This document shows positions 7,340 through 60,211 of a stretch of 64,000 nucleotides of DNA, piece by piece. Origin of the DNA: an uncultured Ruminococcus sp. (GTDB taxonomy: Bacteria > Bacillota > Clostridia > Oscillospirales > CAG-272); assembly GCA_964434325.1 (NCBI GenBank), contig CAYSUO010000004.1, forward strand, positions 1,661 through 65,660, in the 5' to 3' direction. Position numbers and translations under genes: made by a program. A model generated the notes under the pieces. The model worked only from the letters and a program-made list of their open reading frames with translations. It was not told the origin of the DNA and did not search any database. Numbering within the stretch: position 1 is the stretch's first letter; every line of letters starts with the position of its first letter.

Positions 7340-7510
7340 AAAACAGGCTTGCGTGAAAGCTTTTGTTTACCTAAATTGACCATCGCGCACCGTGTGCCGC
7401 GCTATGGCGGCACAACGCAACGAAGATTTACGGCGTGAATTTTTGCTATGGTAATATCACTCACGCACCGAAATTTAATTTATTTCCAAGCATGGCGGAA
7501 TGGAGAGCTT

Positions 7511-8476
7511 ATGAAAATATTGATAGACGCTTTCGGGTGCGATAACCCCGATGATTTTATCGCGGGCATTCCCAAGGCGATACGCACCGTCCCAGGGGTG
7601 ACGCTCGTCGTCGTCGGTGACCGAGAATACTTAGAGCGGCGGCTTGCCGTCGAGGAGTTTGACCGAGGGCACCTCGAAATCGTCCACGCGAGCGAGGTGA
7701 TAACGAACGAGGATACGCCCGTCGCGTCCATTCGCCGCAAGAAGGACTCGTCGCTCGTGCGCGCCTACGAGGAGCTTCGCACGCGAGAAGATCTCCCCGT
7801 TATGATAAGCGCGGGCAACACGGGCGCAATAATCGCGGGCGCCGTCCTCATTCTCGGGCGCGAGGACAGGCAGGATAAGCCCACCCTCGTCACCCTGCTT
7901 CCCAACGATAAGGGCGGCGTGACCTGCCTCGCCGATTGCGGTGCCAACGTCGATTGCCGCCCCGAGCACCTCGTCAAGTTCGCAAGCTACGCTTCCGACT
8001 ATATGCGCCGAGTCTACGGGATAGACGCCCCCCGTGTCGCACTTTTATCGGTTGGCACCGAGGACGGCAAGGGCAATATGCAAACCAAAGACGTCTTTCC
8101 CCTCTTGAAGGAGAGCGGCTTGAACTTCGTCGGCAATATGGAGGCGCGCACCGCGCTCTCGGGCGACGTGGACGTCATCGTTTCCGACGGCTTCGGTGGC
8201 AACGTGCTCCTTAAAACCATAGAGGGAACGGCGAAGTCCGTCGTCGGGCGCTTCGTTTCGCTGCTTCATAAGCACGCGGCGGGTGCGGACGTCTCCTTCG
8301 TGAATGCCGCAGTTGCCGAGCTCTATTCAACGCTCGATTTCAACACCATGGGCGGCGCCGTCATTCTCGGGGCGAAAAAGCCCATCGTCAAGGCGCACGG
8401 CTCTGCAAATTCGGAAACTCTCGTGAATACCGTCAAGCAAGCGGTGCGTATAATAGAAGGTAACGGGAGAGCGTAA
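7511..8476 (+). CDS. plsX: Phosphate acyltransferase PlsX
   Basis: ORF 7448..8476. The internal ATG 7511 follows GGAATGGAGAGCTT. Diagnostic strings are MKILIDAFGCD...SAGNTGA...DCGANVDCRPEHL...GGNVLLKT. Confidence 0.9.
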   Translation: MKILIDAFGCDNPDDFIAGIPKAIRTVPGVTLVVVGDREYLERRLAVEEFDRGHLEIVHASEVITNEDTPVASIRRKKDSSLVRAYEELRTREDLPVMISAGNTGAIIAGAVLILGREDRQDKPTLVTLLPNDKGGVTCLADCGANVDCRPEHLVKFASYASDYMRRVYGIDAPRVALLSVGTEDGKGNMQTKDVFPLLKESGLNFVGNMEARTALSGDVDVIVSDGFGGNVLLKTIEGTAKSVVGRFVSLLHKHAAGADVSFVNAAVAELYSTLDFNTMGGAVILGAKKPIVKAHGSANSETLVNTVKQAVRIIEGNGRA

Positions 8477-17539: not shown

Positions 17540-17555
17540 TCCAGCGTACTCCTTA

Positions 17556-19460: not shown

Positions 19461-19498
19461 TATGCTTTCATCCTTTCTTCCTTGTCTTGTCAGTCTTG

Positions 19499-19996
19499 TC
19501 AATTCTGATATTTTGCCACGATGCCTTCAACGTCGGCGGCAGTCAAGCGGCCATAGACCTCGTCGTTGATGGTGAGGACGGGGGCAAGCCCGCAAGCGCC
19601 GATGCAACGGCAAGCGGTAAGAGAGAATTTTCTGTCGGGCGTGCATTCGTCTCCCGCTATTCCAAGCACCTCTTGAAGCTTGTCGTAGATCTCGCCCGAG
19701 CCCTTGACGTAGCAAGCCGTCCCGAGGCAAACGGAAATGTGGCATTCGCCCTTAGGAGTGAGAGAAAACTGCGCGTAGAACGTGGAAACGCCGTAGACCT
19801 TTTCGAGTGGAACGTCCATGCCTTCCGCGATCCGCGCCTGTACCTCGACGGGAAGGTATCCGTAAATATCCTGGGCCTGTTGCATAACGCCCATGAGGCG
19901 GCTCTTGTCGTGCTTGTTCGCGGCGATTATCTCGTCAAGCCGTGCGTCCTGCTCTTTCGTGGATTTAAACGGAATGGTTGAAAGTTTTTTAAGCAT
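19499..19996 (-). CDS. hydC: NuoE-like [2Fe-2S] subunit HydC
   Basis: 165 aa. Diagnostic strings are CLGTACYVKG...CRCIGACGLAPV. Confidence 0.9.
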   Translation of the reverse strand: MLKKLSTIPFKSTKEQDARLDEIIAANKHDKSRLMGVMQQAQDIYGYLPVEVQARIAEGMDVPLEKVYGVSTFYAQFSLTPKGECHISVCLGTACYVKGSGEIYDKLQEVLGIAGDECTPDRKFSLTACRCIGACGLAPVLTINDEVYGRLTAADVEGIVAKYQN

Positions 19997-43203: not shown

Positions 43204-46200
43204 TCAGACCGTTTCCCCCGCGATAAGAGCCTCGTCGGAGCGCGCCGCGCGCCGCTTCGGCTTCTTTTGCGCCGTCGGCTTCGCTCTCTCCGCCGCCGCC
43301 GCTATCGTGCGAATGACTCTTTGCGGGTAGAGCCACCAGTCGCGGCACCAAACTCTGATGAGCGTCCAGCCGCGCGCTTCGAGGAACTTCGGCTTGTAAA
43401 CGTCGCGCTCCATCACCGAAGCCGAGCCCTGTATCGCGTCGCGATCGAGCTCAACGCCGACAAGGTAGCGGTCGGTCTCCTCGTCGTATATCGCCAGCGA
43501 TATGCGGCTGTTACGCTCGCCCAAGGCGATGTCCACGGTGTAGCCGAGCTTTTCAAGCCGCTCCTTCATCTTTTCCTCAACGGGCGTCGGCGGCTTCAAA
43601 AGGGGCGCGGGCTCCGCTTTGTCGCCTGCTCCGTCAATATCCCCGAGTATCGCGCACACCTCCTCGGCATTCCCCGCCGCCACGGCGCGCACGTACATAA
43701 GATATTTTTTGAGTAGCTTCGGTCCGAGATTTTTGGAGCCCTCAACGCGCAAAGCCTCGGGCTCAATGCTCGTAACAACGATTATCTTCGATTTTGCTCG
43801 CGTTATCGCAACGTTGAGGCGATTTTCTCCCCCCTCCGCCGAAAGCGAGCCGAAGCTCGTGTAAACTCGCCCGTCCGCGTTCTCCGCGTAGCCTATCGAG
43901 AAGATGATTATATCGCGCTCGTCGCCCTGAACGTTTTCAAGATTCTTGATGAATATGCTCGTGTCCTCGCCGTTGTCCTCGCGCCGCGATTCTTTGAGGA
44001 TGAACGAGCGAAATTCGGGCGAGCGCGCCGCCTCCCTGTCCATCGCGTCCGCAATGCAGGACTGTTGCTCACTGTTAAAGGTGATTATACCTATGCTCTC
44101 GTTGTTCTTCCTCGTCGCCGCGATCTCGCCAAGGAGCTCCACCACCTTTTTTGCCTCCGCCTCGTTGCGGCGGTCTATCCATTTCCCCGCCACCTTGTAG
44201 CGCTCTATCGGGCGCTCCTTCAAGTTGCGCGAAATGTTAGGTGCGATTTGAAGCGTCCCGTCGTAAAAAGCGTGATTCGAGAAGTCGATAAGCTCGCGGT
44301 GCTTACTTCTGTAATGGTAAACGAGGTTTGCGCTGTCATAGCGGGAAACGGCGAGGTCAAGCAGGCTGTCAACTTCAAGCGCCGCCTGCATAGCAGGGTC
44401 GTCTTGCCCGTCGGGGTCAGCCCCGAGATAGCGCTTCATAAACGTTGCCGACGGGCGAAGCTGCTTCGCGTCTCCCGCAACAACTATGTTGGCGCCCCTG
44501 AATATCGTCGGTATCGTGCTTTCGATAAAGACCTGCGATGCCTCGTCGAAAATAACCACGTCGAAAAGATTCTTCGTCAGCGGTAAAAGGTTTGAAACGT
44601 TTTCGGGGGAGAGAAGCCAGCAGGGGAAGAGCTCCAAGATAAATTCGCCGTAGGCGTCCATGGTGCGTCTTATCGGCCAGAATTTCTGCTTCTTCGATAT
44701 CTGGTGCAGATAGTCCTTGTTGTTGTCCGCCGCCGCGTAAAGCTTCGCGTATTCGAGCCCGCATTTTCCCGCCGTTATCTCCGCGGCAACGTGCGTCTGC
44801 TCGTCGAGTAGCTTTGATATGCGCCCCGTCACGTTGGCGAAGTCCACCGTCTTCGCCAGCTCCTCCTTGCAGATATCCTCGTATCTTATCACCTCGTGAT
44901 AAATGCGTATTTCAAGGAGCTTGTCGATAACGTCGAGATAGCCCTGGAAGCTCTTGCTCGCCGTGTAGGCAAAGTTCAAGAGCAGTATCTTGTTCTGGTC
45001 GAGGCTTTCCAAGAGATTGTTGACGTCGCGCTGAGCGATATAGTTGTCGAGTGCGTCGTAGACCAGCTTTATGTACTGCGTGTTTCCACGCAGGATATTG
45101 TCGATGACGGCAACGTAGCCGTCGTCGCTCAAAACCCTGTGTAAGCAGTCGTATTCCGCCACAAAGGCTTCAATCGCGTCCAGCGTTTCGAGGAAGCTCT
45201 TCTTTATCCCGTCAAAAGCTCGGCGCGCCGCGCGCCCCTCGCCAAACTTTATTCGCGCCTCCATGCGCACTATCTCGTCGAGATTTTCCTCGTTTGAAAG
45301 CTCCCCGTAGTACGCCATTATCTGCCGATAATACGGGAACTTCGCCGTGCTGAAAAGCCCCTTCTTCGATTTCTGTATTTCAAGGAGCGCCGTCTTCACC
45401 TCGCCCAGCGTCAAAATATCTATCTCGGGCTGCATGTGGTCGATGAGCGGATTCTTCTCCTTCGCCTGCATGAAGTTGTAATACATTTTTTCGAGGCTCT
45501 TCGATTTTATAACGAAAAGCGCCTCGGTCAGCTCTCGGTAATCCAGCGCCATCAGTGCGCGGTTCTCGCACATCCTCGTGTATATCTCGTATTCCACCGA
45601 GCTCTGCGAGAGCATCGTCGAGCTCGCGTACATCTCCGAGAGCGAGAGCCCGAAGGGGCGCTTCTCGTTCAGCACCCTGTATATGTCGTTGAGCTTTTCC
45701 TCCTCGCTTCGTATCCGCCTCGCAATGTCCGTGTAGCGCGCCTCCGCGTCCGCCGTCCCGTCTTCCGTTATGCTCTCCCGCGCCTGGTGCGCCGCTAAGC
45801 ACTTCGCGTAAAACTCGCGCTTCTCCTTGCTTTCGTCGTTCACGTACATCGCGCGGTCGGTCAGCGTTCCCAGCCTGTTGTAAACGACGTCGAGCGCCGC
45901 CTTCTTCTGGGAAACAACGAGAACGCGCTTCTTCTTGCACACCGCGTCGGTGATTATATTAACGATGGTTTGCGATTTTCCCGTCCCAGGAGGTCCGTAT
46001 ATAACAACGTTGCCCTTTTCGTCAACTTTTTTGACGACGTTCGATTGAGCGTAGTCCAGCTTCTTGACAAGGTAGCTGTATCGCTCCCCCTCGCGCCTTG
46101 CGCGCCGCGCCCTTCTTTTCGGCTTGCGCCGCCGCGCCTTCGCCGTCCTCAAAAGCTCGTCTATCGCGTCATTCGTCAGCTTGCGCTTTTCCAAAAGGGA

Positions 46201-47049
46201 ATAGTCGCTGTATATCGAGTTGGATAGCGGAAAGCGCGCAAGCACCGCCGTGTAGCGCACCGAGAGCTCGCCCTTCTCCGTCGGCTCCTTCATCTTCCCG
46301 TAGCCGAATATGTTTTTGAGATCCGCGTTCTCTATCTTCACGTAGGCGCTTTTTAGATATTCTATCACCGCCGCCACGCTTTTGAACGGCAGCTCGTCAA
46401 ATTCCAGATCCAATTGGCTAACGTCGATGCGCTTCGCCTGCGCATAGGCGAAAACGAGCGCGGGGTTGACGTATATCTTTTCCGCCTCGTTGCGAACGAG
46501 CTTGACGGTGTTCTCGTCGGGCATCTCTATTTTGACGGGGAAGAGAACGAGCGGCGCCTTAACAAGCGTCTTGTTGAAGCCTTGATTTATAGAGCCGAAA
46601 ACGAAGGGGTAGCCGACGTAGAGCTCGTATTTTCCCGTCTCCTTTTCGATGGCGTCCGTCTCTCTTTTGAGCTCTTTCAGCTTCGTTATCTCGCCGAGTA
46701 TCGCCCGCGCGCTCTCTTCCTTCGCCGCGCGCTCGTTGCGTTTCTTCTGCTTTTCCTCCTCCTCGGAGGGGATGAGCCCCGCCGCCTCCCAGTCGTAGGT
46801 GGGCGCGGGCTTAACGTCGAGGTTTTGAAGGAGGGAGCTCTTCTCGTTTTGCGCTATCAGGGTGAGCGGTAGCGCCTTGTCGGACCAGAGAAAATCGGCG
46901 AGCTCCGCTATCTTGTCGTCGCGCCCCTCAAATATTCGCCCAATGTCGTAAGCGCCGCGCCTTGCGACGCTTTTTAAATAAAGGCACTTGTTATTGCCGC
47001 CTATCTCGATGAGGCGTTCTTTATAATAAGTGTATATTCCTTTTCCCAT
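43204..47049 (-). CDS. 1281-aa DUF4011 / Upf1-like SF1 helicase (AAA_11/AAA_12) with a C-terminal Vsr/DUF559-like endonuclease fold
   Basis: Walker A is GPPGTGKSQT and motif II is VIFDEASQ. Motifs V/VI are NVQGDERD and NVAITRAK. The C-terminus VGVELDRD...ERDVYKPKFLEARGWTLIRVW resembles the Vsr/DUF559 core. Confidence 0.8.
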   Translation of the reverse strand: MGKGIYTYYKERLIEIGGNNKCLYLKSVARRGAYDIGRIFEGRDDKIAELADFLWSDKALPLTLIAQNEKSSLLQNLDVKPAPTYDWEAAGLIPSEEEEKQKKRNERAAKEESARAILGEITKLKELKRETDAIEKETGKYELYVGYPFVFGSINQGFNKTLVKAPLVLFPVKIEMPDENTVKLVRNEAEKIYVNPALVFAYAQAKRIDVSQLDLEFDELPFKSVAAVIEYLKSAYVKIENADLKNIFGYGKMKEPTEKGELSVRYTAVLARFPLSNSIYSDYSLLEKRKLTNDAIDELLRTAKARRRKPKRRARRARREGERYSYLVKKLDYAQSNVVKKVDEKGNVVIYGPPGTGKSQTIVNIITDAVCKKKRVLVVSQKKAALDVVYNRLGTLTDRAMYVNDESKEKREFYAKCLAAHQARESITEDGTADAEARYTDIARRIRSEEEKLNDIYRVLNEKRPFGLSLSEMYASSTMLSQSSVEYEIYTRMCENRALMALDYRELTEALFVIKSKSLEKMYYNFMQAKEKNPLIDHMQPEIDILTLGEVKTALLEIQKSKKGLFSTAKFPYYRQIMAYYGELSNEENLDEIVRMEARIKFGEGRAARRAFDGIKKSFLETLDAIEAFVAEYDCLHRVLSDDGYVAVIDNILRGNTQYIKLVYDALDNYIAQRDVNNLLESLDQNKILLLNFAYTASKSFQGYLDVIDKLLEIRIYHEVIRYEDICKEELAKTVDFANVTGRISKLLDEQTHVAAEITAGKCGLEYAKLYAAADNNKDYLHQISKKQKFWPIRRTMDAYGEFILELFPCWLLSPENVSNLLPLTKNLFDVVIFDEASQVFIESTIPTIFRGANIVVAGDAKQLRPSATFMKRYLGADPDGQDDPAMQAALEVDSLLDLAVSRYDSANLVYHYRSKHRELIDFSNHAFYDGTLQIAPNISRNLKERPIERYKVAGKWIDRRNEAEAKKVVELLGEIAATRKNNESIGIITFNSEQQSCIADAMDREAARSPEFRSFILKESRREDNGEDTSIFIKNLENVQGDERDIIIFSIGYAENADGRVYTSFGSLSAEGGENRLNVAITRAKSKIIVVTSIEPEALRVEGSKNLGPKLLKKYLMYVRAVAAGNAEEVCAILGDIDGAGDKAEPAPLLKPPTPVEEKMKERLEKLGYTVDIALGERNSRISLAIYDEETDRYLVGVELDRDAIQGSASVMERDVYKPKFLEARGWTLIRVWCRDWWLYPQRVIRTIAAAAERAKPTAQKKPKRRAARSDEALIAGETV

Positions 47050-48028: not shown

Positions 48029-50320
48029 ATGAAACTTACCAAGCGTATTCTCGTGGTGCTCGCGGCAGTCGCCATTCTGGCGTCCTGCTTCGTTTTCGCA
48101 AGCTCCGCGGAGGCTGCGACGGATAATATTGAGGATATCCTCGAATACTACGATAACCCTCAATACGTTCTCGAAAATTTTGACGCGCTCACCGCGGGCG
48201 ACGCGTATTCCTACGTGAAGCGTGACGACGAGTTCGGCGTCAAGACCGAGTTCGTTTCGAGCGGCGCCCTCATCGCCACCGACTCGTCCGCCCCCGATAA
48301 CCTCGTTCTATCCTACACGGAAACGGAGGCGTCCAACGAGGATAAGCCCTTCGGCTACGTCGTCGTTCCCGACGAGCCAAGCACCAAGGTCGTCGCCATC
48401 GTTCGCATTCGTGCCGATAAGCCCGAGAATGCCGTGGCAATGAGCTTCGGCTTCAACGTCTACGCCACCGCAGCGAACGGCGCTCCCGTCGGTGAAAACC
48501 GACTCGTCTCACCCCTGACGCTCAATTTTGAAACAGGCGTCGTCACCTACGCTCGCGCTTCCGCAGTAGATGCTTCCGTGTTCAACTATCTCCCCGTCAA
48601 CGGCGTCACCGTCGAGGCAGGGAAGTGGTACACCGTTTCATTTATTATGAATTGCGAGCGCGCAACTTACAGCTTCTCCATTCAGGAGGACGGTGAGAAA
48701 GCCTATAATTCCGTCGAGGTATCTCTTGGAGACGCGGCGCTCATCGAAGAGTTCAACGCCTACTTCGTGAGCGGTCCTCGCTCCGTGGGCGCAAGCTCGT
48801 ATATCGACAATGTTAATATTTTCAGCGGCTCATTCATTCGTGGCTCCGAGTCGAGAAACGAGGCGACCACCAAGGCGCTCGTCGAGCTCAAAGCCCTTTT
48901 GGAGACGGAGCTTGACCTTGAAACCGAGATAAGAATAGCCGAGGTCTTTGCAAGGCTTGCAGAAACGGACTTTGAGCCCGTCGCGATAGAGGGCGTCGAG
49001 CTTGAAGAGGCGCAGGAGCTTTTCTCATCGGCGAAGAAATCCGTCCCCGCCACCTACGAAAAGGCGTTCGTGAGCGAGGTCTCCAATATCGACGTTTCCC
49101 GTTCCTTCTCCCGTCGCCAGAAGCAGATCGCCGTCGTTGAAAAATATATGGCATCCCTCAGCGCTGATCAGCTCAGCCTCAACTATGACTACGTGAAGGC
49201 GTACAAAGCCGAAAAGCGTGCGCTTGACGAGATAGAGAGAGATTCACTCGCATATATCGCGGCAATAGAAGAATACGATGAAACGAGTCGCGTCTATTCC
49301 TACATACTTGATAGCTACGATACGCTTTCCACTTACTCCTCGCGCAATGGCTCTTATCCAGGCGTCTACGAGTGCGCAAGCACGTTCAGCGAGCTTGAAA
49401 AGAAGGCGACGGAGATTCGCGCCAACGTTTCCGCATTCCGCGGCGGCGTTGCCGCAATGCGTGCCAACCTCGATTTCGCCAGCGTCTACGCGGGCTACGT
49501 TGAGGCATCGGCGGTTTATAACGACGGCGTTATTCACTCCGCAGTCGATTCCAACACCGTTCCTGGGCTCGTCGGCGATATCGCCTTCTACCTTGAAGAG
49601 CAGGTCAGGCTGACCAAGATAATCGAGGAGTGCGAAGGCTTCATCTCGGCGGTCACCCGTGCCAGCTCCGCCATGTACTATGCAACGATGAAGACCGAGC
49701 TCGCGGTCGCCGAGCTCTATCTTGACGATAATCTCGACGAGTACGTCGTCGAGGACGAATACCCTGGAATAGAAGAAGCCAAGACCAAGCTCATCGCAGT
49801 TCGCTCCAAGGTTGCCGCGCTTGAAGCGGCTGCCGAGGCATACGTCGAGGCGGTTGCCGAGATATCCAAGCAAGCCACCTTCACCGAAAAGAGAATGGCG
49901 GTCGAATACGCCTACGCGCTCAAAGAGAGCGGCAACGTCATAGGTATCGCGGGCGTCGCGGAAGCGAATATAGCTCTCGCCAATGCAGACAACCTGCTTG
50001 AAGTTCTTGAAGGAAACAGCAAAACTCTCATCGAGACCGTGGAAAAGCTGGGAGACTCGTCTCTTACCCTTTCCGAGCGCCGTGAGCTCATTATGACGGC
50101 GAAGAACGCCTACGATAATGCGGAGCCCACCTATCAGGGCGTTTTCGAGGCGGGCAACGCGCTCAGCTCCTATATGCAGGAGTACGCGGCAGAGGTCGCG
50201 GCGATAAACGCCTCCTTCTCCGCGCTCGTTTGCAATGCCAACTCGATTGCTGGTGCTGGAATAAATCAATCGCGGTTTGACGGTGTTATCGGCGTTATAA
50301 GAGCAATATACGCCGATTGA
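48029..50320 (+). CDS. 763-aa secreted protein with an N-terminal beta-sandwich (LamG/ConA-like guess) and a long alpha-helical region
   Basis: The signal peptide is MKLTKRILVVLAAVAILASCFVFASSAEA. SD TAAGGAGA precedes the start. GKWYTVSFIMN..ATYSFSI resembles LamG-type strands. I can name no family. Confidence 0.7.
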   Translation: MKLTKRILVVLAAVAILASCFVFASSAEAATDNIEDILEYYDNPQYVLENFDALTAGDAYSYVKRDDEFGVKTEFVSSGALIATDSSAPDNLVLSYTETEASNEDKPFGYVVVPDEPSTKVVAIVRIRADKPENAVAMSFGFNVYATAANGAPVGENRLVSPLTLNFETGVVTYARASAVDASVFNYLPVNGVTVEAGKWYTVSFIMNCERATYSFSIQEDGEKAYNSVEVSLGDAALIEEFNAYFVSGPRSVGASSYIDNVNIFSGSFIRGSESRNEATTKALVELKALLETELDLETEIRIAEVFARLAETDFEPVAIEGVELEEAQELFSSAKKSVPATYEKAFVSEVSNIDVSRSFSRRQKQIAVVEKYMASLSADQLSLNYDYVKAYKAEKRALDEIERDSLAYIAAIEEYDETSRVYSYILDSYDTLSTYSSRNGSYPGVYECASTFSELEKKATEIRANVSAFRGGVAAMRANLDFASVYAGYVEASAVYNDGVIHSAVDSNTVPGLVGDIAFYLEEQVRLTKIIEECEGFISAVTRASSAMYYATMKTELAVAELYLDDNLDEYVVEDEYPGIEEAKTKLIAVRSKVAALEAAAEAYVEAVAEISKQATFTEKRMAVEYAYALKESGNVIGIAGVAEANIALANADNLLEVLEGNSKTLIETVEKLGDSSLTLSERRELIMTAKNAYDNAEPTYQGVFEAGNALSSYMQEYAAEVAAINASFSALVCNANSIAGAGINQSRFDGVIGVIRAIYAD

Positions 50321-54928: not shown

Positions 54929-55576
54929 CTATCTAAGCGTCAGCTTGTCTATCGTCAGATATTCTTCGACGGCGGCGGGAGAGGTCGTATCAAAGGTCTT
55001 GCTCGCGCCGCAGGCGGGGCAAAATATCTGAACTCCGTCGGGCGCGAAGCGAACGTCGTAGCCGTGCCCCGCATGGCAGGGGCAGTCTATGCCGCCCTCG
55101 TCTTCCAAGGTCTTCGTCAGAAAGCGCAAAGCGTCGTAGACCTCGGGGGAGGGAAGAACGTCCTCTTCGTTGATATCCTGTGGTTGCATTTCCTTGAAGC
55201 TGTCCGCTTCAAGGTCGGATAAGAGGCGCGTCAGCTCCTCGCCCGTGCGCTCTATCTCCTTCTCCGTCTTGTCCTCGTCGCCGATGAAGCATATATCCAT
55301 GTTGGCATACGGGCAGTTCAAAAGAAAGAGCTCCCGCCCGAAAAATATGCTTTGCGATACGACGTAGCTGTGATTTGCCTTGCAAAAAATGCAGGGGACG
55401 GAGAGCCGCAGCTTCTTATCGTTCGTAACGTTTATATCGAGGTGCGAGCCGCCACATTCGCATTTCAGCCTCAGCATATCGGCGGAGAGCGCAAATTTTC
55501 CCACCAGCCCGAGAACGGTCGAGCCGCATTCGGGGCAGCGGTACGCCACGTGCGTTTTCTTAGGTTCAAGTATCAT
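54929..55576 (-). CDS. Cys-rich (multi zinc-ribbon) hypothetical protein
   Basis: The start MILEPKK at 55576 follows AAAGGAAG. Cys pairs are CPECG, CECGG, CIFC, CPCH and CPAC. It is the last gene of the ftsK-side transcription unit. Confidence 0.65.
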   Translation of the reverse strand: MILEPKKTHVAYRCPECGSTVLGLVGKFALSADMLRLKCECGGSHLDINVTNDKKLRLSVPCIFCKANHSYVVSQSIFFGRELFLLNCPYANMDICFIGDEDKTEKEIERTGEELTRLLSDLEADSFKEMQPQDINEEDVLPSPEVYDALRFLTKTLEDEGGIDCPCHAGHGYDVRFAPDGVQIFCPACGASKTFDTTSPAAVEEYLTIDKLTLR

Positions 55577-55640
55577 GAGAGCTTCCTTTCGAGTGCCGCC
55601 CCTCACGCTCCGCGCGAGGGGCGGCGATATTTCCGTGCGA

Positions 55641-56759
55641 TCAATCGAGGCTTTTGAGCCGCCTCTTCCATTCCGCCTCCGTCATCAAAACGTCGCGCGA
55701 AGTTTTTCCCGTGCATTCTCCTATCAGTCCCATATCCTCCAAGATGTCGAGCAGCTTTGCGGCTCTTCCGTAGCCGACGCCGAGCTTCCTCTGTATCAGC
55801 GAGGTCGAAATGCTTCCTGCTTCGAACGCAAGATTCGCCGCCGTGAGCAGTAGCGGGTCGAGGTGTGGCTCGTCGTCTTGCGTGGTCTCCGCCGTCGAGC
55901 TCTCCTCGCGCTTCGGCATAAGAACGGAGCTCGCTATTCGCTCCGCCGTCGCGTCGCCCGCGAGGCGTCTCTCCCATTCCGCCGCCGTCATCAAAACGGC
56001 GCGCGAAGTCTTTCCCGTGCATTCTCCTATCAGTCCCATGTCCTCCAAAATGTCGAGTAGCTTCGCGGCTCTTCCGTAGCCGACATTGAGCTTCCTCTGT
56101 ATCAGCGAGGTCGAAATGCTTCCCGCTTCGAGCGCAAGATTCGCCGCCGTGAGCAGTAGCGGGTCGAGGTGCGGCTCGTCGTCTTGCACGGCCTCCGCCG
56201 TCGCGCTTTCCTCGCGCTTCGGCATAAGAACGGAGCTTGCTATTCGCTCCGCCGTCGCGTCGTCCGCGAGCCGCCTTAAAAGCTCAATGGAGAATTCCGC
56301 CGCGGCGCCCGCGCCGCGCGCCGTCGTTATCCTGCCCGAGGTGAGACAGGGAAGGTCCTCCACCGTCGCCCCTTCGAGATGGGCTTCAAAGCCAGGATAG
56401 CACACCGCGCGCTCCCCCTTCAAAAGCCCGCGCTTCCCGAGCAGAAACGGTGAGGCGCATATCGCCCCGATGCGCTTGCCGCCAGCGTATATGTCGCGAA
56501 TCGCTTTGTCAACGAAGGGGGAAGAGTCTAAGTTTTTCGCCCCAGGCATTCCGCCTGGCAAAATGAGCGCTTCAACGTCGTTTGCGTTAAATTCGTTTGC
56601 CACGGCGTCCGCCGTGACCTGTATTCCGTGCGCCCCGCGAACGAGCCTTTCCTCCGTTATCGAAACGGTTTTCGCGTCGAGCCCCGCGCGCCTAAAAAAG
56701 TCGAGCGGCGTTAATGCCTCTATCTCCTCAAAGCCTTCTGCAAGTAGTATCGCTATCAT
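55641..56759 (-). CDS. DJ-1/PfpI-family protein fused to two tandem FtsK-gamma-like winged-helix domains
   Basis: Residues 1 to about 185 read LLAEGFEE.E...PGG...IGAICASP, with the nucleophile-elbow Cys. They are followed by 2 x 102 aa containing DPLLLTAANLA.EAGSISTSLIQRKL.VGYGRAAKLLDILEDMGLIGE..GKTSR.VL. Confidence 0.85.
   Translation of the reverse strand: MIAILLAEGFEEIEALTPLDFFRRAGLDAKTVSITEERLVRGAHGIQVTADAVANEFNANDVEALILPGGMPGAKNLDSSPFVDKAIRDIYAGGKRIGAICASPFLLGKRGLLKGERAVCYPGFEAHLEGATVEDLPCLTSGRITTARGAGAAAEFSIELLRRLADDATAERIASSVLMPKREESATAEAVQDDEPHLDPLLLTAANLALEAGSISTSLIQRKLNVGYGRAAKLLDILEDMGLIGECTGKTSRAVLMTAAEWERRLAGDATAERIASSVLMPKREESSTAETTQDDEPHLDPLLLTAANLAFEAGSISTSLIQRKLGVGYGRAAKLLDILEDMGLIGECTGKTSRDVLMTEAEWKRRLKSLD
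55661..56272. repeat. 2 x 306-bp tandem duplication inside the DJ-1 fusion gene
   Basis: The anchor CCATTCCGCC(T/G)CCGTCATCAAAAC occurs at 55668 and 55974. The two copies are near-identical by eye. Confidence 0.9.
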
Positions 56760-56788
56760 ACCGACTGTCCTTTCGTTGTTTATTTGTT

Positions 56789-59700
56789 TTAATCTAAGCT
56801 ACGCCGCGCAAGTATCTCGTGCCACTCGTCCTTCGTTATCAGAACGTCGCGCGGCTTCTGTCCGTTCGGCTCGCTGACAAAGCCCTGCTCCTCCATAATA
56901 TCTATGAATTTCGCCGCCTTCCCGTAGCCAACTCCTATTTTTCTCTGTATCAGCGACGTCGCTATCTTGCCCTGCTTGACCGCCAGCTCCACCGCCTCCA
57001 AGAATTGCGGGTCGTTGAAATATCCCGTTCCGCTCTCTCCGCCGTCGTCCGCGTCGTCCATCTCGTCGCCTTTTCCGCCCTTCGAGCACTTCTGCGCCGC
57101 GCGGTTTATCTCCTCCATCGCCTGCTCGTCGTAGCCGCCGCCCTTGTTCTGGCTCTTCAAGAAGTTCATAACGCGCTCCACCTCCCCGTCGGAAACGAAT
57201 GCGCCCTGAACTCGTGTCGGCTTCGGCTTGCCGACGGGCCAGAACAGCATATCGCCGTTGTTCAGCAGCTTCTCCGCGCCCGCCTGCTCCAATATCGTCT
57301 TCGAGTCCGTGAACGAGGATACCTTGCAAGCTATCCTCGACGGAATGTTCGCCTTGATAACTCCCGTGATAACGTCCACCGACGGTCTCTGCGTACCTAT
57401 TATCAGGTGTATTCCCGCCGCGCGCGCCTTTTGCGCTATCCTCATTATCAGGTCCTCCACGGGCTTTCGCACTTGCAGCATCAGGTCGTTCAGCTCGTCG
57501 ATAACGATAACTATCTTCGGGAGCGGCGCCCCGAGGCTCGGGTCGTCGCGTAACTTCTGATTGTAGCCGTCCAGATTGCGCACGTTGTATTCGAGGAACA
57601 TCTCGTAGCGCTTCTCCATCTGGTCCACCGCCCACATCAGCGCGCCCGCCGCCTGCTTAACGTCGATGATGACGGGTATCAAAAGGTGTGGTATCCCGTT
57701 GTAGCCGTTAAATTCGACCATCTTCGGGTCTATCATGATGAATTTCAGCTCGTCGGGGCGCGCGCGATAGAGCATGCTTATCATTATCGAGTTGATGCAT
57801 ACCGATTTTCCCATACCCGTCGCACCCGCTATCAGCATGTGCGGCATCTTCGCTATATCGCCGAGCACGGGGTTGCCCGTAACGTCCTTGCCGAAGCACG
57901 CCATCGTCGTCGAGCTCGCGTTCTTAAATTCGTCGGTTTCCAAGAGGTCTCGCAAAAAGACCATTTGCGGCTTCCTGTTCGGTATCTCAACGCCTATCGC
58001 GGATTTTCCTGGAATGGGCGCCTCCATTCGTATTCCCTCCGCCGCCAGGTTGAGTGAAATATCGTCGAAAAGGTTTATCACCGAGTTAACGCGTACCCCC
58101 TTGGCGGGGACTATCTCGTAGCGCGTGATACGCGGCCCCACGTCAACGCTTCGTATCGAGGCACGAACGTTGAATTGCGCCAGCGTGTCGATGAGCTTTT
58201 CTCCGTTGCGCGTTATTTCCTCGTTGATATTTTCGTCTATCTCCGTCGCGCCCTTTTTCAAAAGGTCTATCGGCGGCGCCTTGTAGTTTGAATAGTCCTG
58301 CACCTTCGGCTTTTCTTCCTTCGGCTTCTCCTGCCGCGGCGCGCTCGCCGTCGCCTCCGCCGCGCCCCGCATCGCGGTCGGCGCGTCGAAGGGCGGCTCA
58401 TCGTCCTCTTCACCGTCGTTCGGCTTCAAGGGCTCGCTCTCCGTCACGATGACCGCCTCGGGCGCCGCCTTCTCCTCGCCGTCAAACATGGTGAACATAT
58501 TTCGGTACGCCAAAACGTCGGGATTCTGCTTCTCCTCGGGAATGGGCTCCACATCGGGTGCCCCGTCCTCGTCATCGTCTCCCAACGTCATATCGAAGCC
58601 CGCCGCCGTCTCCTCGTCGTCCTCCTCGTCATAGTCGGGCGTGGGATTGAGTATCGAGCGCCCCAAAACGAGCTCGTCGCGCGTGTTCGCTTCGTGCTCA
58701 GCCTCGTAGCTCGCCGCGTGAGCCTCATCGAAGGGCTTGTAGCCAACGTCGTTGAAGCTCCCGTTCGTCGCGCGAGCCTCACCGAAGGGCTTATAGCCGA
58801 TATCGTTGGAGCTCTCGCTCGTCGCGCGAGCCTCACCGAAGGGCTTATAGCCGATATCGTTGGAGCTCTCGCTCGTCGCGCGAGCCTCACCGAAGGGCTT
58901 GTAGCCGACCTCGTTGGAGCTCTCGCTCGCATAAGAAGCGCTCGCCGAGCCCGTGGCTCCACAGCTCGTGTACGTCGCCTTGGCGCGCTCCGCTTCCTTT
59001 TCGCGCAAAAGCTCTTTAATCCGCGCCTCGCGCGCCGCCTCTGCCGCTCTCCTTTGCGCCTCGGCTTCCGCCGCCCGCTTCATCTCCTCGTCCGCCGCGC
59101 GGCGCGCCTCATTGAGCCTATCGTCCGAAAAACTCGTTTTGACGGGCTCCGCATATTCGTTTATCATCTCCGCGGCTTCCCGCGTCCTTCTTCCTTGCTC
59201 CGCCGCCCGCTCCGCGTTGAGCGCGAAGTCGAACGGGTCAAATTCCTTCGTAAATATCTCGTCCGCGCTTTCGGGGTTACTTATCGTCGTCTCCTCGCGG
59301 CGCACCTCGGCTTGCTCCGTCGGCTCCGTCTCGGGCTCCGCCTCCACCTCGATGTCCATCGGCGCCTCGTCGTCCCCGTCGTCGAAGATCTCCGCATAGT
59401 CGCTCCGCCGAACGTCCGACTTGTGCATCACGTGCTCCTGCAAATGCGGGAAGCTCTCCGCCGCCTCCGAGCTCCGCGTTTCCTTTATCCCGAGCTTGTC
59501 TATCTTCAATTCACTCATTCCATTGTCGGGAGCGAAGAAATCATCGTCGTAGAGCGAGGAGTGCTTCTCGGAAACCCTCGGCGCTCGCGCGTCCTCTTTT
59601 TTGACCGCGTTCTCCGCCTTCTTGTCCCTTCTTTTCCGTTTCAGCTTCGCCGAAAGGGCGGAGAGCTTGTCCAGCATAAAAAGGAGCATTCGCGCCAGGG

Positions 59701-60211
59701 TCGATTTCCCGTTCGCGAAAAAGTAAACGATGTAGAGCGCAAAAATGAGCGCCGCTATGATAATGAGCCCAACGGGGCCGAATATCTTCATGAGCCCGTA
59801 GCCCGCAATGCCACCTATCCAGCCGCCGCCCACGTGCTCCGCTCCGTTCTGGTAGTAAATGCGCGGCTCAAAGCCGACCTCCGCCGAAAAGCTGTATATC
59901 GTGTGCAAAAGGGAAGAGAAGGCGAGAAGCGTAACGAGGCTGAAAATTATGCGCGAGCTCGTCCTCTTCTTCATAACATCCGTCGGGTAAAACACCGCGT
60001 GTATCGCGAGGAGGAAGGGGATGAGATAGGCGCCGCTCGAAAAAAGCCCGAGCAAAAAGCCGCCCACGTATTTCCCGAGCCCCACGTCGTCGGGCGTTAG
60101 AAAGCAGAGTCCGATAAAAAGCGCCAGCGCAAAAAGAACTATGGGAACGGCTCGTTTGCCGCCCGAAAGACTCGCGTAAGCACCCTTGCTGCCTTTTTGT
60201 TTTTTAGACAT
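56789..60211 (-). CDS. ftsK: DNA translocase FtsK/SpoIIIE
   Basis: 1140 aa with N-terminal TM helices and a long acidic repetitive linker. The motor has Walker A GATGMGKS. The C-terminal gamma domain reads IATSLIQRKIGVGYGKAAKFIDIMEEQGFV. Confidence 0.92.
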   Translation of the reverse strand: MSKKQKGSKGAYASLSGGKRAVPIVLFALALFIGLCFLTPDDVGLGKYVGGFLLGLFSSGAYLIPFLLAIHAVFYPTDVMKKRTSSRIIFSLVTLLAFSSLLHTIYSFSAEVGFEPRIYYQNGAEHVGGGWIGGIAGYGLMKIFGPVGLIIIAALIFALYIVYFFANGKSTLARMLLFMLDKLSALSAKLKRKRRDKKAENAVKKEDARAPRVSEKHSSLYDDDFFAPDNGMSELKIDKLGIKETRSSEAAESFPHLQEHVMHKSDVRRSDYAEIFDDGDDEAPMDIEVEAEPETEPTEQAEVRREETTISNPESADEIFTKEFDPFDFALNAERAAEQGRRTREAAEMINEYAEPVKTSFSDDRLNEARRAADEEMKRAAEAEAQRRAAEAAREARIKELLREKEAERAKATYTSCGATGSASASYASESSNEVGYKPFGEARATSESSNDIGYKPFGEARATSESSNDIGYKPFGEARATNGSFNDVGYKPFDEAHAASYEAEHEANTRDELVLGRSILNPTPDYDEEDDEETAAGFDMTLGDDDEDGAPDVEPIPEEKQNPDVLAYRNMFTMFDGEEKAAPEAVIVTESEPLKPNDGEEDDEPPFDAPTAMRGAAEATASAPRQEKPKEEKPKVQDYSNYKAPPIDLLKKGATEIDENINEEITRNGEKLIDTLAQFNVRASIRSVDVGPRITRYEIVPAKGVRVNSVINLFDDISLNLAAEGIRMEAPIPGKSAIGVEIPNRKPQMVFLRDLLETDEFKNASSTTMACFGKDVTGNPVLGDIAKMPHMLIAGATGMGKSVCINSIMISMLYRARPDELKFIMIDPKMVEFNGYNGIPHLLIPVIIDVKQAAGALMWAVDQMEKRYEMFLEYNVRNLDGYNQKLRDDPSLGAPLPKIVIVIDELNDLMLQVRKPVEDLIMRIAQKARAAGIHLIIGTQRPSVDVITGVIKANIPSRIACKVSSFTDSKTILEQAGAEKLLNNGDMLFWPVGKPKPTRVQGAFVSDGEVERVMNFLKSQNKGGGYDEQAMEEINRAAQKCSKGGKGDEMDDADDGGESGTGYFNDPQFLEAVELAVKQGKIATSLIQRKIGVGYGKAAKFIDIMEEQGFVSEPNGQKPRDVLITKDEWHEILARRSLD
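58712..58930. repeat. 4 x 54-bp in-frame tandem repeat in the FtsK linker
   Basis: It encodes ESSN(E/D)(V/I)GYKPFGEARATS x3 plus a diverged fourth copy. The DNA unit is CGCGCGAGCCTCACCGAAGGGCTTATAGCCGATATCGTTGGAGCTCTCGCTCGT. Confidence 0.9.

What the first reader, a model, noticed from the sequence alone, without database searches (positions are those of the whole stretch)
55641..56759. DJ-1/PfpI enzyme fused to two tandem FtsK-gamma DNA-binding domains, encoded 29 nt downstream of ftsK
Residues 1 to about 185 form a complete DJ-1/PfpI/ThiJ fold with the nucleophile-elbow cysteine (IGAICASP). They are followed by two 102-aa repeats. Each repeat has a linker (DATAERIASSVLMPKREES..TAE..QDDEPH) and a domain reading DPLLLTAANLA(L/F)EAGSISTSLIQRKL(N/G)VGYGRAAKLLDILEDMGLIGECTGKTSR(A/D)VLMT. 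This matches the gamma winged-helix of FtsK/SpoIIIE, whose hallmark is S.S.LQR...IGY.RAA.L.D..E..G..G.....R.VL. It also matches the C-terminus of the adjacent FtsK: IATSLIQRKIGVGYGKAAKFIDIMEEQGFVSEPNGQKPRDVLIT...RRSLD versus ...KRRLKSLD. At the DNA level the two repeats are a near-identical 306-bp tandem duplication (55661-56272). The FtsK 3' end seems to have been copied onto a DJ-1 gene and then duplicated. In FtsK the gamma domain reads chromosome polarity motifs (KOPS/SRS) and contacts XerD. A soluble DJ-1-type hydrolase or deglycase carrying two such domains would be targeted to DNA, or would compete with FtsK for those sites. I do not know of a described protein with this architecture.
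Basis: partly seen in the sequence, partly recalled or inferred. Interest (0 to 1): 0.75.

Follow-up and report, generated by a model that had tools for sequence, protein, structure and literature searches.

The report
DJ-1 enzyme carrying two FtsK DNA-reading domains
Just downstream of the chromosome-segregation gene ftsK, this gut-type Clostridia genome encodes a DJ-1-type detoxifying enzyme fused to two copies of FtsK's small DNA-reading domain; it belongs to an undescribed family in which DJ-1 is repeatedly joined to FtsK parts, which hints that this enzyme works on or beside the chromosome.

Summary
ORF 55641-56759 (-) encodes 372 aa. It has a DJ-1/YajL-type domain with the catalytic Glu and Cys intact, followed by two FtsK gamma winged-helix domains. 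The second gamma comes from an in-frame 306-bp tandem duplication (92.5% identical copies, dN/dS 0.28). The gene starts 29 nt after the ftsK stop.

The interpretation needs correcting.
- The protein is not unique. DJ-1+gamma occurs in more than 40 protein clusters from uncultured Clostridia.
- Related forms include DJ-1-gamma-gamma, gamma-DJ-1 and DJ-1 fused to a whole soluble FtsK motor plus gamma.
- The gene sits in a conserved ftsK / DJ-1(+/- FtsK modules) / zinc-ribbon gene cluster.
- The window's gammas are only 52-56% identical to the neighbouring FtsK gamma, so the fusion is old. Only the duplication is recent: the closest relative (87% identical) has one gamma.
- Fused motors are old paralogues, 27-37% identical to their own FtsK. 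This points to a DJ-1-FtsK ancestor that lost its motor.

The most likely function is a DJ-1 enzyme tethered to DNA or to FtsK loading sites. This is inferred, not shown. I found no paper describing the architecture. I rate it a new variant of known kinds, of moderately high interest.

The parts
55641..56759 (-). Whole gene: DJ-1-gamma-gamma protein, 372 aa
   Evidence: ORF list; Pfam and NCBIfam; AF2 mean pLDDT 87.6 with three folded domains.
56229..56759 (-). DJ-1/YajL-type domain (aa 1-177). Glu14 is at 56718-56720 and the nucleophile-elbow Cys101 at 56457-56459.
   Evidence: PF01965 E 5e-38; TIGR01383 147.6 > 131.25. Foldseek gives TM 0.85-0.91 to STM1931, human DJ-1 and YajL. Cys and Glu align with solved DJ-1s and are invariant or >=90% conserved in the family.
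56169..56228 (-). Linker 1 (aa 178-197), predicted disordered
   Evidence: AF2 pLDDT <50 for residues 184-196.
55959..56168 (-). FtsK-gamma winged-helix domain 1 (aa 198-267)
   Evidence: PF09397 stretch 199-258. Sequence match to solved FtsK gamma structures 2j5o, 2ve8/2ve9, 2j5p and 5dcf, E 2e-6. AF2 pLDDT about 90.
55863..55958 (-). Linker 2 (aa 268-299). It contains a duplicated, orphan copy of the last DJ-1 helix.
   Evidence: Repeat anatomy; AF2 pLDDT <50 for residues 270-298.
55653..55862 (-). FtsK-gamma winged-helix domain 2 (aa 300-369)
   Evidence: Second PF09397 stretch; my gamma profile hits 301-371; 93% identical to gamma 1.
55971..56276 (-). Tandem repeat copy 1 (306 nt, aa 162-263)
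   Evidence: TRF; in-frame comparison.
55665..55970 (-). Tandem repeat copy 2 (306 nt, aa 264-365). It is followed by the 9-nt microhomology AGGCGGCTC at 55656-55664.
   Evidence: 23 differences from copy 1 (12 synonymous, 11 non-synonymous), dN/dS 0.28; junction anatomy.
56760..56788 (-). 29-nt ftsK / DJ-1 intergenic spacer with AAAGGA ribosome-binding site
   Evidence: Sequence. No terminator-like site on this strand between the genes.
56789..60211 (-). ftsK (1140 aa): 4TM, long linker, alpha, motor, and gamma at 56804-57016
   Evidence: Pfam PF13491, PF17854, PF01580 and PF09397.
54929..55606 (-). Conserved third gene of the cluster: a zinc-ribbon protein of about 215 aa with unknown function. 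The likely start is Met11, at 55576.
   Evidence: Lies 34 nt downstream. A homologue follows the DJ-1 gene in 20 loci whether or not DJ-1 is fused. More than 800 clusters, all unnamed. No PDB fold match.

Best explanation
The gene encodes a catalytically competent DJ-1/YajL-type enzyme (of the glyoxalase III / reactive-electrophile hydrolase type). Two FtsK-type gamma winged-helix domains on flexible linkers tether it to the chromosome.

What is shown:
- The three-domain anatomy.
- Intact catalytic Glu and Cys.
- Intact gamma folds whose three KOPS-contact positions match those of the cell's own FtsK.
- Purifying selection on both repeat copies.
- Membership of a recurrent DJ-1 + FtsK-module family encoded directly after ftsK.

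What is inferred (history): the lineage descends from an old soluble DJ-1-FtsK(alpha-beta-gamma) paralogue encoded downstream of ftsK. That paralogue lost its motor to give DJ-1-gamma. In this genome, illegitimate recombination at a 9-nt microhomology then duplicated the [last DJ-1 helix + linker + gamma] segment.

What is inferred (mechanism): the gammas bind DNA, probably the same polar motifs that load FtsK. One FtsK motif takes three gammas, so two gammas per chain raises avidity, and more so if the DJ-1 domain dimerises as DJ-1 proteins normally do. DJ-1 chemistry is thereby concentrated at the nucleoid or at FtsK loading sites. There it removes methylglyoxal-type electrophiles before they damage DNA or the segregation machinery.

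The confidence given (0.45) is for the tethered-enzyme mechanism. The anatomy and the family membership I hold at about 0.9.
For: Domains: Pfam and NCBIfam above curated cut-offs. AF2 pLDDT 87.6 with three folded domains and two disordered linkers. Foldseek TM about 0.9 to DJ-1 structures. Gamma matches solved FtsK gammas.

Catalytic residues: Glu14 is invariant and Cys101 >=90% conserved across 24 family members. Both align with solved DJ-1s. All five motor-bearing DJ-1 fusions scanned (P0041, P0121-P0123, P0127) also pass TIGR01383.

Gamma: the positions equivalent to E. coli R1300/E1303/E1306, the KOPS-recognition residues (PMC2680272), are K/D/E in both gammas and in the window's own FtsK gamma.

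Selection: dN/dS is 0.28 between the copies, 0.20 for DJ-1 against the orthologue, and 0.44-0.57 for gamma against the orthologue.

Recurrence:
- 41 DJ-1-gamma, 3 DJ-1-gamma-gamma, 7-8 gamma-DJ-1 and about 10 DJ-1-motor-gamma clusters.
- Gamma-DJ-1 also occurs away from ftsK with its own ribosome-binding site.
- At least three lineages show recent capture or gene conversion from FtsK gamma, at 80-85% identity.

Context: the ftsK / DJ-1(x) / zinc-ribbon cluster is conserved. Other Clostridia have ftsK-tmk-DJ-1.

History:
- Fused motors are 27-37% identical to their own FtsK motor.
- L008 (DJ-1-motor-gamma) and L036 (plain DJ-1) have FtsK motors 97% identical.
- The orthologue P0002 has one gamma in the same synteny.
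- The junction is a 9-nt microhomology.
Against: - No binding, activity or localisation data exist for any member.
- DJ-1-linked gammas evolve faster than FtsK gammas (mean pairwise identity 41% against 53%). Some are clearly degenerate (L010, L008). Close relatives do well with a plain DJ-1 (L009, L030, L036). The gamma is therefore dispensable in many lineages.
- Nucleic-acid 'deglycase' activity of DJ-1 proteins is disputed (PMC10127264, PMC9539984, PMC10035033 against; PMC10431920 for). The chemistry that would benefit from DNA tethering is therefore uncertain.
- The direction of evolution (motor loss or motor gain) rests on unbootstrapped NJ trees and pairwise identities.
- The second gamma is seen in only one assembly.
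Confidence: 0.45

Rival explanations
1. It modulates the FtsK/Xer pathway. The free gamma domains act on the segregation machinery itself. They could compete with FtsK for loading motifs, or contact the XerD-type recombinase as FtsK gamma does. DJ-1 would serve as a dimerising scaffold or as a redox/electrophile sensor through its reactive cysteine, coupling dimer resolution or FtsK loading to carbonyl or oxidative stress.
For: Gamma is the FtsK module that reads KOPS and activates XerD (PMC2680272; a XerD-gamma fusion structure, 5dcf, is among the sequence matches). The recognition-helix positions are identical to those of the cell's own FtsK. The gene is probably co-transcribed with ftsK: 29-nt gap and no terminator. 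FtsK homologues with three tandem gammas exist, so gamma dosage is something evolution tunes.
Against: The DJ-1 catalytic residues and the TIGR01383 score are fully retained, which a mere scaffold would not need. Plain DJ-1 occupies the same operon position in close relatives. No Xer gene or dif site was examined. Gamma-DJ-1 forms sit away from ftsK.
Confidence: 0.22
2. It is an evolutionary leftover. The gammas are decaying remnants of a DJ-1-FtsK paralogue, or by-products of a locus prone to duplication. The protein would work simply as a cytoplasmic DJ-1 enzyme, and the gammas add nothing that is selected.
For: Architectures turn over quickly (D, DG, DGG, DMG, DGM and others) even between genomes whose FtsK motors are 97% identical. 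Some fused motors have lost Walker A and B. Some gammas are degenerate. Gamma dN/dS (0.44-0.57) is more relaxed than DJ-1 (0.20).
Against: Both window gammas keep a confident fold and strong Pfam scores, with dN/dS of 0.27 between them. DJ-1 + gamma is retained in more than 40 clusters. It arose in both orders and at loci away from ftsK. In some lineages it is refreshed from FtsK gamma.
Confidence: 0.15
3. The second gamma is an assembly artefact. The real gene would be a single-gamma DJ-1-gamma like its orthologue, and the tandem copy would result from two strain variants being joined.
For: The two-gamma protein is a singleton cluster from one contig. It is absent from the gene-position index. 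Two junction searches of JGI metagenomes found nothing. Differences between the copies are mostly synonymous, as strain alleles would be.
Against: The copy1/copy2 junction sequence (GAATGGGAG|AGACGCCTCGCGGGC) cannot be produced from a single-copy gene. Only 9 nt of homology link the two breakpoints, shorter than any assembly k-mer. The frame is preserved. Independent two-gamma relatives exist with gamma1-gamma2 identities of 67%, 44% and 34%.
Confidence: 0.06
4. It is a transcription factor. The arrangement of an N-terminal DJ-1-like domain and a C-terminal helix-turn-helix would work like the DJ-1-domain AraC-type regulators (FtrA/GbdR type). DJ-1 would sense a small molecule and the winged helix would bind an operator.
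For: The order of domains is the same. There are weak NCBIfam hits to FtrA (E 6e-9) and GbdR through the DJ-1 domain, and weak MarR/TrmB-type hits on the gamma region.
Against: Those hits are far below the cut-offs (35.5 against 425 bits). There is no AraC HTH. The DNA-binding domain is unambiguously FtsK gamma. The DJ-1 domain is the enzymatic DJ-1/YajL type, related to stand-alone DJ-1 genes at the same locus.
Confidence: 0.07

Closest known systems
DJ-1/YajL subfamily of the DJ-1/PfpI superfamily (human DJ-1/PARK7, E. coli YajL, Salmonella STM1931; NCBIfam TIGR01383 'DJ-1 family glyoxalase III')
   Same: Residues 1-177 pass the TIGR01383 cut-off and superpose on these structures at TM 0.85-0.91. 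They keep the Glu and the nucleophile-elbow Cys.
   Different: Known members are single-domain proteins of about 180-200 aa. This one carries 195 extra residues with two DNA-binding domains. His126 of human DJ-1 is probably a Tyr here (my alignment from memory of the human sequence; not tested).
FtsK/SpoIIIE gamma domain (PF09397; structures 2J5O, 2J5P, 2VE8/2VE9, 5DCF)
   Same: Both repeats are full-length gamma winged helices. The three KOPS-contact positions are conservatively retained and identical to those of the cell's own FtsK.
   Different: In FtsK/SpoIIIE the gamma follows an alpha-beta motor and works as part of a hexamer. Here there is no motor, there are two gammas in tandem, and the partner domain is an enzyme.
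SftA of Bacillus subtilis (a soluble FtsK paralogue without membrane domain; PMC5357621 and PMC4744071)
   Same: The DJ-1-alpha-beta-gamma relatives (P0041, P0043, P0127 and others) are likewise soluble FtsK paralogues that coexist with a membrane-anchored FtsK.
   Different: To my knowledge SftA has no DJ-1 domain. The window protein has lost the motor altogether, so it cannot translocate DNA.
AraC-type regulators with an N-terminal DJ-1/PfpI-like domain (FtrA, GbdR; NCBIfam NF006902, NF052371)
   Same: A DJ-1-fold domain is followed by a DNA-binding helix-turn-helix.
   Different: The HTH class differs (AraC against FtsK gamma winged helix). Scores are far below the family cut-offs. Those regulators use the DJ-1 fold as a sensor, whereas here it is the bona fide enzymatic subfamily.

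Membership tests
DJ-1/PfpI superfamily, DJ-1/YajL type (TIGR01383) | Profile match above the curated cut-offs (PF01965; TIGR01383) | tested here: met
   PF01965 130.8 bits against 26.6. TIGR01383 147.6 against 131.25.
DJ-1/PfpI superfamily, DJ-1/YajL type (TIGR01383) | Flavodoxin-like DJ-1 fold | tested here: met
   AF2 pLDDT 96-98 over most of the domain (88 for residues 171-180). Foldseek TM(target) 0.85-0.91, rmsd 1.5-1.9 A to 4k2h, 1p5f and 2ab0.
DJ-1/PfpI superfamily, DJ-1/YajL type (TIGR01383) | Nucleophile-elbow Cys and the conserved Glu that tunes it (human C106/E18) | tested here: met
   Cys101 in IGAICASP and Glu14 in GFEEIEA align with AICA(S/A)P and EE(I/M)E of solved DJ-1s. Both are conserved in the family.
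DJ-1/PfpI superfamily, DJ-1/YajL type (TIGR01383) | Glyoxalase III or related hydrolase activity; homodimer | not testable with these tools
   Needs enzyme assays and SEC/MALS or a multimer model.
FtsK gamma domain (PF09397) | Profile match above the gathering score | tested here: met
   132.2 bits against 30.6, two stretches.
FtsK gamma domain (PF09397) | Three-helix winged-helix fold related to solved gamma structures | tested here: met
   phmmer finds 2j5o, 2ve8 and 2j5p at E 2e-6 to 6e-5 over 58-60 residues. AF2 gives H-H-H plus strand elements at pLDDT about 90. Foldseek hits were dominated by DJ-1, so no separate structural hit was obtained.
FtsK gamma domain (PF09397) | Recognition-helix residues that read KOPS (E. 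coli R1300, E1303, E1306) | tested here: inconclusive
   The equivalents are K, D, E in both gammas and in the window's FtsK (residues from PMC2680272). The changes are conservative, but the motif read by this clade is unknown.
FtsK gamma domain (PF09397) | Binds polar chromosomal motifs; activates XerD | not testable with these tools
   A 64-kb window is too short to define skewed motifs. No biochemistry is available.
FtsK/SpoIIIE DNA translocases | RecA-type alpha-beta motor (PF17854 + PF01580) with Walker A/B | tested here: not met
   No motor match in the 372-aa protein. It is not a translocase, although relatives P0041, P0127 and others are.
DJ-1-domain AraC-type regulators (FtrA/GbdR) | C-terminal AraC-type HTH; family score above the cut-off | tested here: not met
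   FtrA 35.5 bits against 425. GbdR 16.8 against 480. No AraC HTH hit.

The most novel reading that the evidence does not exclude
DJ-1 + FtsK-module proteins would form a previously unrecognised chromosome-associated system for damage from reactive carbonyls and electrophiles. In the full forms (DJ-1-alpha-beta-gamma), a DJ-1 enzyme is loaded at polar motifs by gamma and driven along DNA by an FtsK-type motor. The window's DJ-1-gamma-gamma is a motor-less version that parks the enzyme at those motifs or on FtsK/Xer complexes. This would be natural evidence that DJ-1-family chemistry has a DNA-proximal role, a point still disputed for DJ-1/PARK7.
Probability: 0.17. Interest if true: 0.85.

Novelty: new variant of a known kind. 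Interest (0 to 1): 0.6.

Why it matters
DJ-1/PARK7-family proteins are intensively studied, yet their real substrates are disputed. In particular, it is unclear whether they protect or repair nucleic acids. A natural, recurrent fusion of a bona fide DJ-1 enzyme to the DNA-reading domain of FtsK, and in relatives to an entire FtsK motor, gives a concrete testable system: does tethering DJ-1 to DNA matter, and for what chemistry?

For chromosome biology, the finding adds three things:
- an undescribed class of soluble FtsK paralogues;
- free gamma-domain proteins that could modulate FtsK loading or Xer activation;
- a conserved three-gene cluster (ftsK / DJ-1 / zinc-ribbon protein) in abundant, uncultured gut Clostridia.

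The locus is also a clear example of domain shuffling by tandem duplication, internal deletion and gene conversion between neighbouring genes.

Tried and rejected
- Exact look-up of the 372-aa product in the gene-position index found nothing, so there is no independent contig.
- Two junction-specific DNA searches of JGI metagenome contigs gave 0 hits. The duplication is therefore neither confirmed nor refuted by other assemblies.
- I looked for KOPS/SRS-like strand-skewed 7- and 8-mers in the window. The top skewed words (CGTCGCG, TCGTCGCC and the like) reflect codon usage and gene orientation, and the known motifs occur only 1-22 times per strand. 64 kb is too little sequence.
- The genome-contig scan did not return the window's own genome. 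The best hit was 54% identical, so the taxon is known only as uncultured Eubacteriales/Clostridia from relatives.
- An ungapped dN/dS baseline for ftsK against the orthologue was invalid because of indels and was discarded. Sliding nucleotide identity was used instead.
- The first Biopython distance tree timed out. It was replaced by my own NJ without bootstraps, so tree topology is used only where pairwise identities agree.
- A fold search of the zinc-ribbon neighbour found no PDB match with E < 0.09.
- I rejected the idea that gamma-DJ-1 proteins are ftsK read-through fragments. L091 shows a stand-alone gene after a tmk-like gene, with its own ribosome-binding site.
Full report
OBSERVATION. 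The ORF at 55641-56759 on the minus strand encodes 372 aa. Its ATG lies 29 nt after the stop of a 1140-aa ORF (56789-60211), and the spacer contains an AAAGGA ribosome-binding site. No terminator-like site lies on this strand between the two genes. Tandem Repeats Finder reports one array at 55656-56276: period 306, 2.0 copies, 92% matches, no indels.

DOMAINS. Pfam assigns DJ-1_PfpI to residues 2-162 (E 5e-38) and FtsK_gamma to two stretches (E 5e-39), both far above gathering scores. NCBIfam's equivalog TIGR01383, 'DJ-1 family glyoxalase III', is passed at 147.6 bits against a cut-off of 131.25.
- An AlphaFold2 model built on a 24-sequence family alignment has mean pLDDT 87.6. It shows three well-folded domains joined by two disordered linkers, residues 184-196 and 270-298.
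- Foldseek places the first domain on DJ-1 structures (STM1931, human DJ-1, YajL, Toxoplasma and Drosophila DJ-1) at TM 0.85-0.91.
- The gamma sequence matches the solved FtsK gamma domains 2J5O, 2VE8/2VE9 and 2J5P, and the XerD-gamma fusion 5DCF.
- Alignment to solved DJ-1s puts Cys101 (IGAICASP) on the nucleophile-elbow cysteine and Glu14 (GFEEIEA) on the conserved glutamate. Glu14 is invariant and Cys101 >=90% conserved among 24 family members.
- The upstream ORF is a complete FtsK with 4TM, alpha, motor and gamma domains.

THE REPEAT. In gene coordinates the duplicated unit is nt 484-789 and 790-1095, which is window 55971-56276 and 55665-55970. The two units are 283/306 identical.
- The unit does not respect domain borders. 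It begins at Arg162, inside DJ-1, so it carries the last DJ-1 helix (DATAERIASSVL), the linker and the gamma domain. An orphan copy of that helix therefore sits in the gamma1-gamma2 linker.
- The breakpoints share only the 9-nt AGGCGGCTC (Arg-Arg-Leu). It occurs once at the end of DJ-1 and once in the C-terminal tail after gamma. This is the signature of illegitimate recombination at a microhomology.
- The 23 differences split into 12 synonymous and 11 non-synonymous (dS 0.18, dN/dS 0.28). Both copies have therefore been kept under purifying selection for some time.
- A mis-join of two strain alleles is unlikely, because the junction sequence cannot be generated from a single-copy gene and 9 nt is below any assembler word size.
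- Even so, the two-gamma gene is known from this one contig only, and two junction searches of JGI metagenomes found nothing. I put the artefact risk at about 6%.

IT IS A FAMILY, NOT A ONE-OFF. A search of 5.8 billion proteins returned dozens of proteins with both PF01965 and PF09397. Nearly all are unnamed metagenomic sequences. The only label is 'DJ-1/PfpI family protein [Clostridia bacterium]'. Using my own domain profiles on the hits, the architectures among the 120 best clusters are:
- DJ-1-gamma: 41
- DJ-1-gamma-gamma: 3 (the window, P0003, P0004)
- gamma-DJ-1: 7
- DJ-1-motor-gamma: 5
- DJ-1-motor: 4 (some possibly truncated at contig ends)
- DJ-1-gamma-motor: 1

A profile search of 1.84 billion 50%-identity representatives added several more forms:
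- DJ-1-motor-gamma-motor-gamma (P0121, 1227 aa)
- DJ-1-gamma-motor-gamma (P0122)
- DJ-1-motor-gamma-gamma (P0123)
- further DJ-1-motor-gamma proteins
- ordinary FtsK fragments with three tandem gammas (P0149, P0159)

Pfam confirmed these assignments for representative proteins, and the five motor-bearing DJ-1 fusions scanned with NCBIfam (P0041, P0121-P0123, P0127) all pass TIGR01383. Identity between gamma 1 and gamma 2 is 93% in the window, 67% in P0004, 44% in P0003 and 34% in P0123. Gamma duplication has therefore happened several times independently.

CONTEXT. The closest relative, P0002, is 87% identical, 271 aa long and has one gamma. It sits in identical synteny: ftsK, DJ-1-gamma, a zinc-ribbon protein of about 215 aa, a divergent Amidase_3 gene and a ttcA-like gene.
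- The same cluster is found around more distant DJ-1-gamma, DJ-1-gamma-gamma, DJ-1-motor-gamma and DJ-1-gamma-motor genes.
- In species-representative genomes, all uncultured Eubacteriales/Clostridia MAGs, ftsK is often followed directly by a plain DJ-1 of about 180 aa (L009, L014, L018, L030, L036, L057). Alternatively a thymidylate-kinase-like gene comes first and DJ-1 second (L012, L023, L025, L028, L032, L033, L066).
- The zinc-ribbon gene follows DJ-1 in 20 loci whether or not DJ-1 is fused.
- One gamma-DJ-1 lineage (L091) lies after the tmk-like gene, away from any ftsK in the contig, and has its own ribosome-binding site.
- The DJ-1/FtsK association is thus conserved at three levels: neighbourhood, fusion in one order, and fusion in the other order.

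ORIGIN. For this genome that is not a recent event.
- The two gammas are 52% and 56% identical to the window's own FtsK gamma, no closer than to FtsK gammas of other genomes.
- Elsewhere the picture differs. The DJ-1-linked gamma of L005 is 83-84% identical to its own FtsK gamma. That of P0008 is 81% identical to the FtsK gamma of L006. That of P0042 is 80% identical to the FtsK gamma of L028, against 54% to any other DJ-1-linked gamma. P0042 also sits in a different DJ-1 subclade. Recent capture or gene conversion from the neighbouring ftsK therefore does occur.
- The fused motors are old. They are only 27-37% identical to the FtsK motor of the same genome. Many keep Walker A (GATGMGKS) and Walker B (DEL), while a few have lost both.
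- L008 and L036 have FtsK motors 97% identical and DJ-1 domains 80% identical. Yet L008 has DJ-1-motor-gamma and L036 a plain DJ-1, which indicates recent loss.
- In both the DJ-1 and the gamma NJ trees, DJ-1-motor-gamma proteins sit next to DJ-1-gamma proteins, for example L008/P0052 with P0047.

My reading (inference) is that an ancient soluble DJ-1-FtsK(alpha-beta-gamma) paralogue encoded after ftsK has repeatedly been reduced to DJ-1-gamma or to plain DJ-1. On top of this there have been occasional gamma duplication and gene conversion. The window's lineage would be DJ-1-gamma (shared with P0002) plus a lineage-specific duplication. The trees are unbootstrapped, so the direction of change is not proven.

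MECHANISM. It is established for FtsK that gamma is a winged helix. Its recognition helix (E. coli R1300, E1303, E1306) reads KOPS, and gamma also activates XerD (PMC2680272; the structures are listed). From my own knowledge, one KOPS is bound by three gammas (Lowe et al. 2008, the 2VE9 structure), and isolated gamma can activate XerD.
- In the window, the three KOPS-contact positions are K, D, E in both DJ-1-linked gammas and in the FtsK gamma. This is compatible with all three reading the same motif.
- The DJ-1 domain keeps everything a working enzyme needs.
- The best-supported model is therefore a DJ-1 enzyme tethered to DNA or to FtsK loading sites. Two gammas per chain raise avidity, and there would be four per particle if DJ-1 dimerises as usual.
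- What the enzyme does there is uncertain. Glyoxalase III activity is accepted for DJ-1 proteins, while nucleic-acid and protein deglycase activity is disputed (PMC10127264, PMC9539984 and PMC10035033 against; PMC10431920 for).
- Rivals are a modulator of FtsK loading or Xer activation, a neutral relic, an assembly artefact for the second gamma, and a transcription factor. They are set out with their tests in the rival section.

COMPARISON AND NOVELTY.
- The protein is a member of the DJ-1/YajL subfamily and carries two genuine FtsK gamma domains.
- It is not an FtsK/SpoIIIE translocase, because it has no motor.
- It is not a DJ-1-domain AraC regulator, because there is no AraC HTH and scores are far below the cut-offs.
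- Its motor-bearing relatives resemble SftA in being soluble FtsK paralogues, but with a DJ-1 head.
- Full-text searches found no paper combining FtsK, DJ-1 and gamma domain, and nothing relevant for FtsK plus PfpI.
- I could not query InterPro's architecture tables. The domain pair is certainly present in public protein sets, so it is 'catalogued' only in the sense of automatic annotation.
- I classify it as a new variant of known kinds. The extra gamma in this window is a minor, recent twist on an undescribed family.

SIDE OBSERVATIONS.
- Between the window and L001, the DJ-1-gamma gene is 85-90% identical in nucleotides, while the flanking ftsK motor region and zinc-ribbon gene are 93-99% (FtsK motor 99.2%, zinc-ribbon 97.2%, DJ-1 88.9% in amino acids).
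- The zinc-ribbon neighbour is a large (more than 800 clusters), well-conserved, unnamed family with 11 invariant cysteines. It gives a confident AF2 model (pLDDT 80.7) and has no PDB fold match.
- The FtsK linker contains a 54-bp x 4.1 repeat.
- The rest of the window is ordinary anaerobe chromosome, including argS, cysS, an [FeFe]-hydrogenase with a NuoF-like subunit, FakA, and a DUF4011-helicase-nuclease.

Noticed in passing
window 54929-55606 (-): A conserved zinc-ribbon protein of about 215 aa lies immediately downstream of the DJ-1 gene, with 11 invariant Cys including CPxCG motifs at both ends. It belongs to more than 800 unnamed clusters with no real Pfam family. The AF2 model has pLDDT 80.7 and no PDB fold match (best E 0.09). 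It follows DJ-1 in 20 loci regardless of fusion state, so it is probably a functional partner.
   Followed up: yes
P0041, P0043, P0045, P0124, P0126-P0128 (L090 4119-6062; L008 6001-7770): Soluble FtsK paralogues whose N-terminal membrane domain is replaced by a DJ-1 enzyme (DJ-1-alpha-beta-gamma, about 590-720 aa). They are encoded right after a normal ftsK. Many have intact Walker A/B, and their motors are only 27-37% identical to the neighbouring FtsK. P0121 has two motor-gamma units. This is arguably more remarkable than the window's own protein.
   Followed up: partly
L091 395-1408; P0055, P0060, P0061, P0026, P0036, P0039, P0063, P0129: Permuted gamma-DJ-1 proteins with gamma at the N-terminus. 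In L091 the gene follows a thymidylate-kinase-like gene rather than ftsK and has its own ribosome-binding site.
   Followed up: partly
P0149 (742 aa), P0159 (829 aa): FtsK-type motor proteins with three tandem gamma domains, 39-63% identical to one another. This is notable because one KOPS is bound by three gammas.
   Followed up: partly
window 58709-58929 (within ftsK linker): A 54-bp x 4.1 in-frame tandem repeat (91% matches) encodes 18-aa units (...SSNDIGYKPFGEARATSE...) in the FtsK linker region.
   Followed up: no
window 55641-56759 vs L001 2033-2848: The DJ-1-gamma gene is a local dip in identity between the window and its closest relative (85-90% nt), while the flanking ftsK motor and zinc-ribbon gene are 93-99% (FtsK motor 99.2% aa, DJ-1 88.9% aa). 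This suggests faster evolution or allelic exchange at this gene. Other genes further downstream show similar dips.
   Followed up: partly
L012, L023, L025, L028, L032, L033, L066 (about 6150-7650 in each): In another set of Clostridia the order is ftsK, a thymidylate-kinase-like gene, then DJ-1. The DJ-1/ftsK neighbourhood therefore extends beyond the fused clade and includes a nucleotide-metabolism gene.
   Followed up: partly
window 43204-47049 (-): A 1281-aa protein with DUF4011, AAA_11/AAA_12 helicase domains and a C-terminal MTES_1575 restriction-endonuclease-like domain. It is a helicase-nuclease of unknown role.
   Followed up: no
window 48029-50320 (+): A 763-aa protein with an N-terminal signal-like hydrophobic segment and no Pfam match at E <= 1e-5.
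   Followed up: no
window 15791-19996 (-): Three adjacent ORFs. Two were scanned: an [FeFe]-hydrogenase large subunit and a NuoF-like flavoprotein. The third, a small 165-aa ORF, was not scanned. The set looks like an electron-bifurcating HydABC-type hydrogenase, consistent with a strictly anaerobic fermenter.
   Followed up: no
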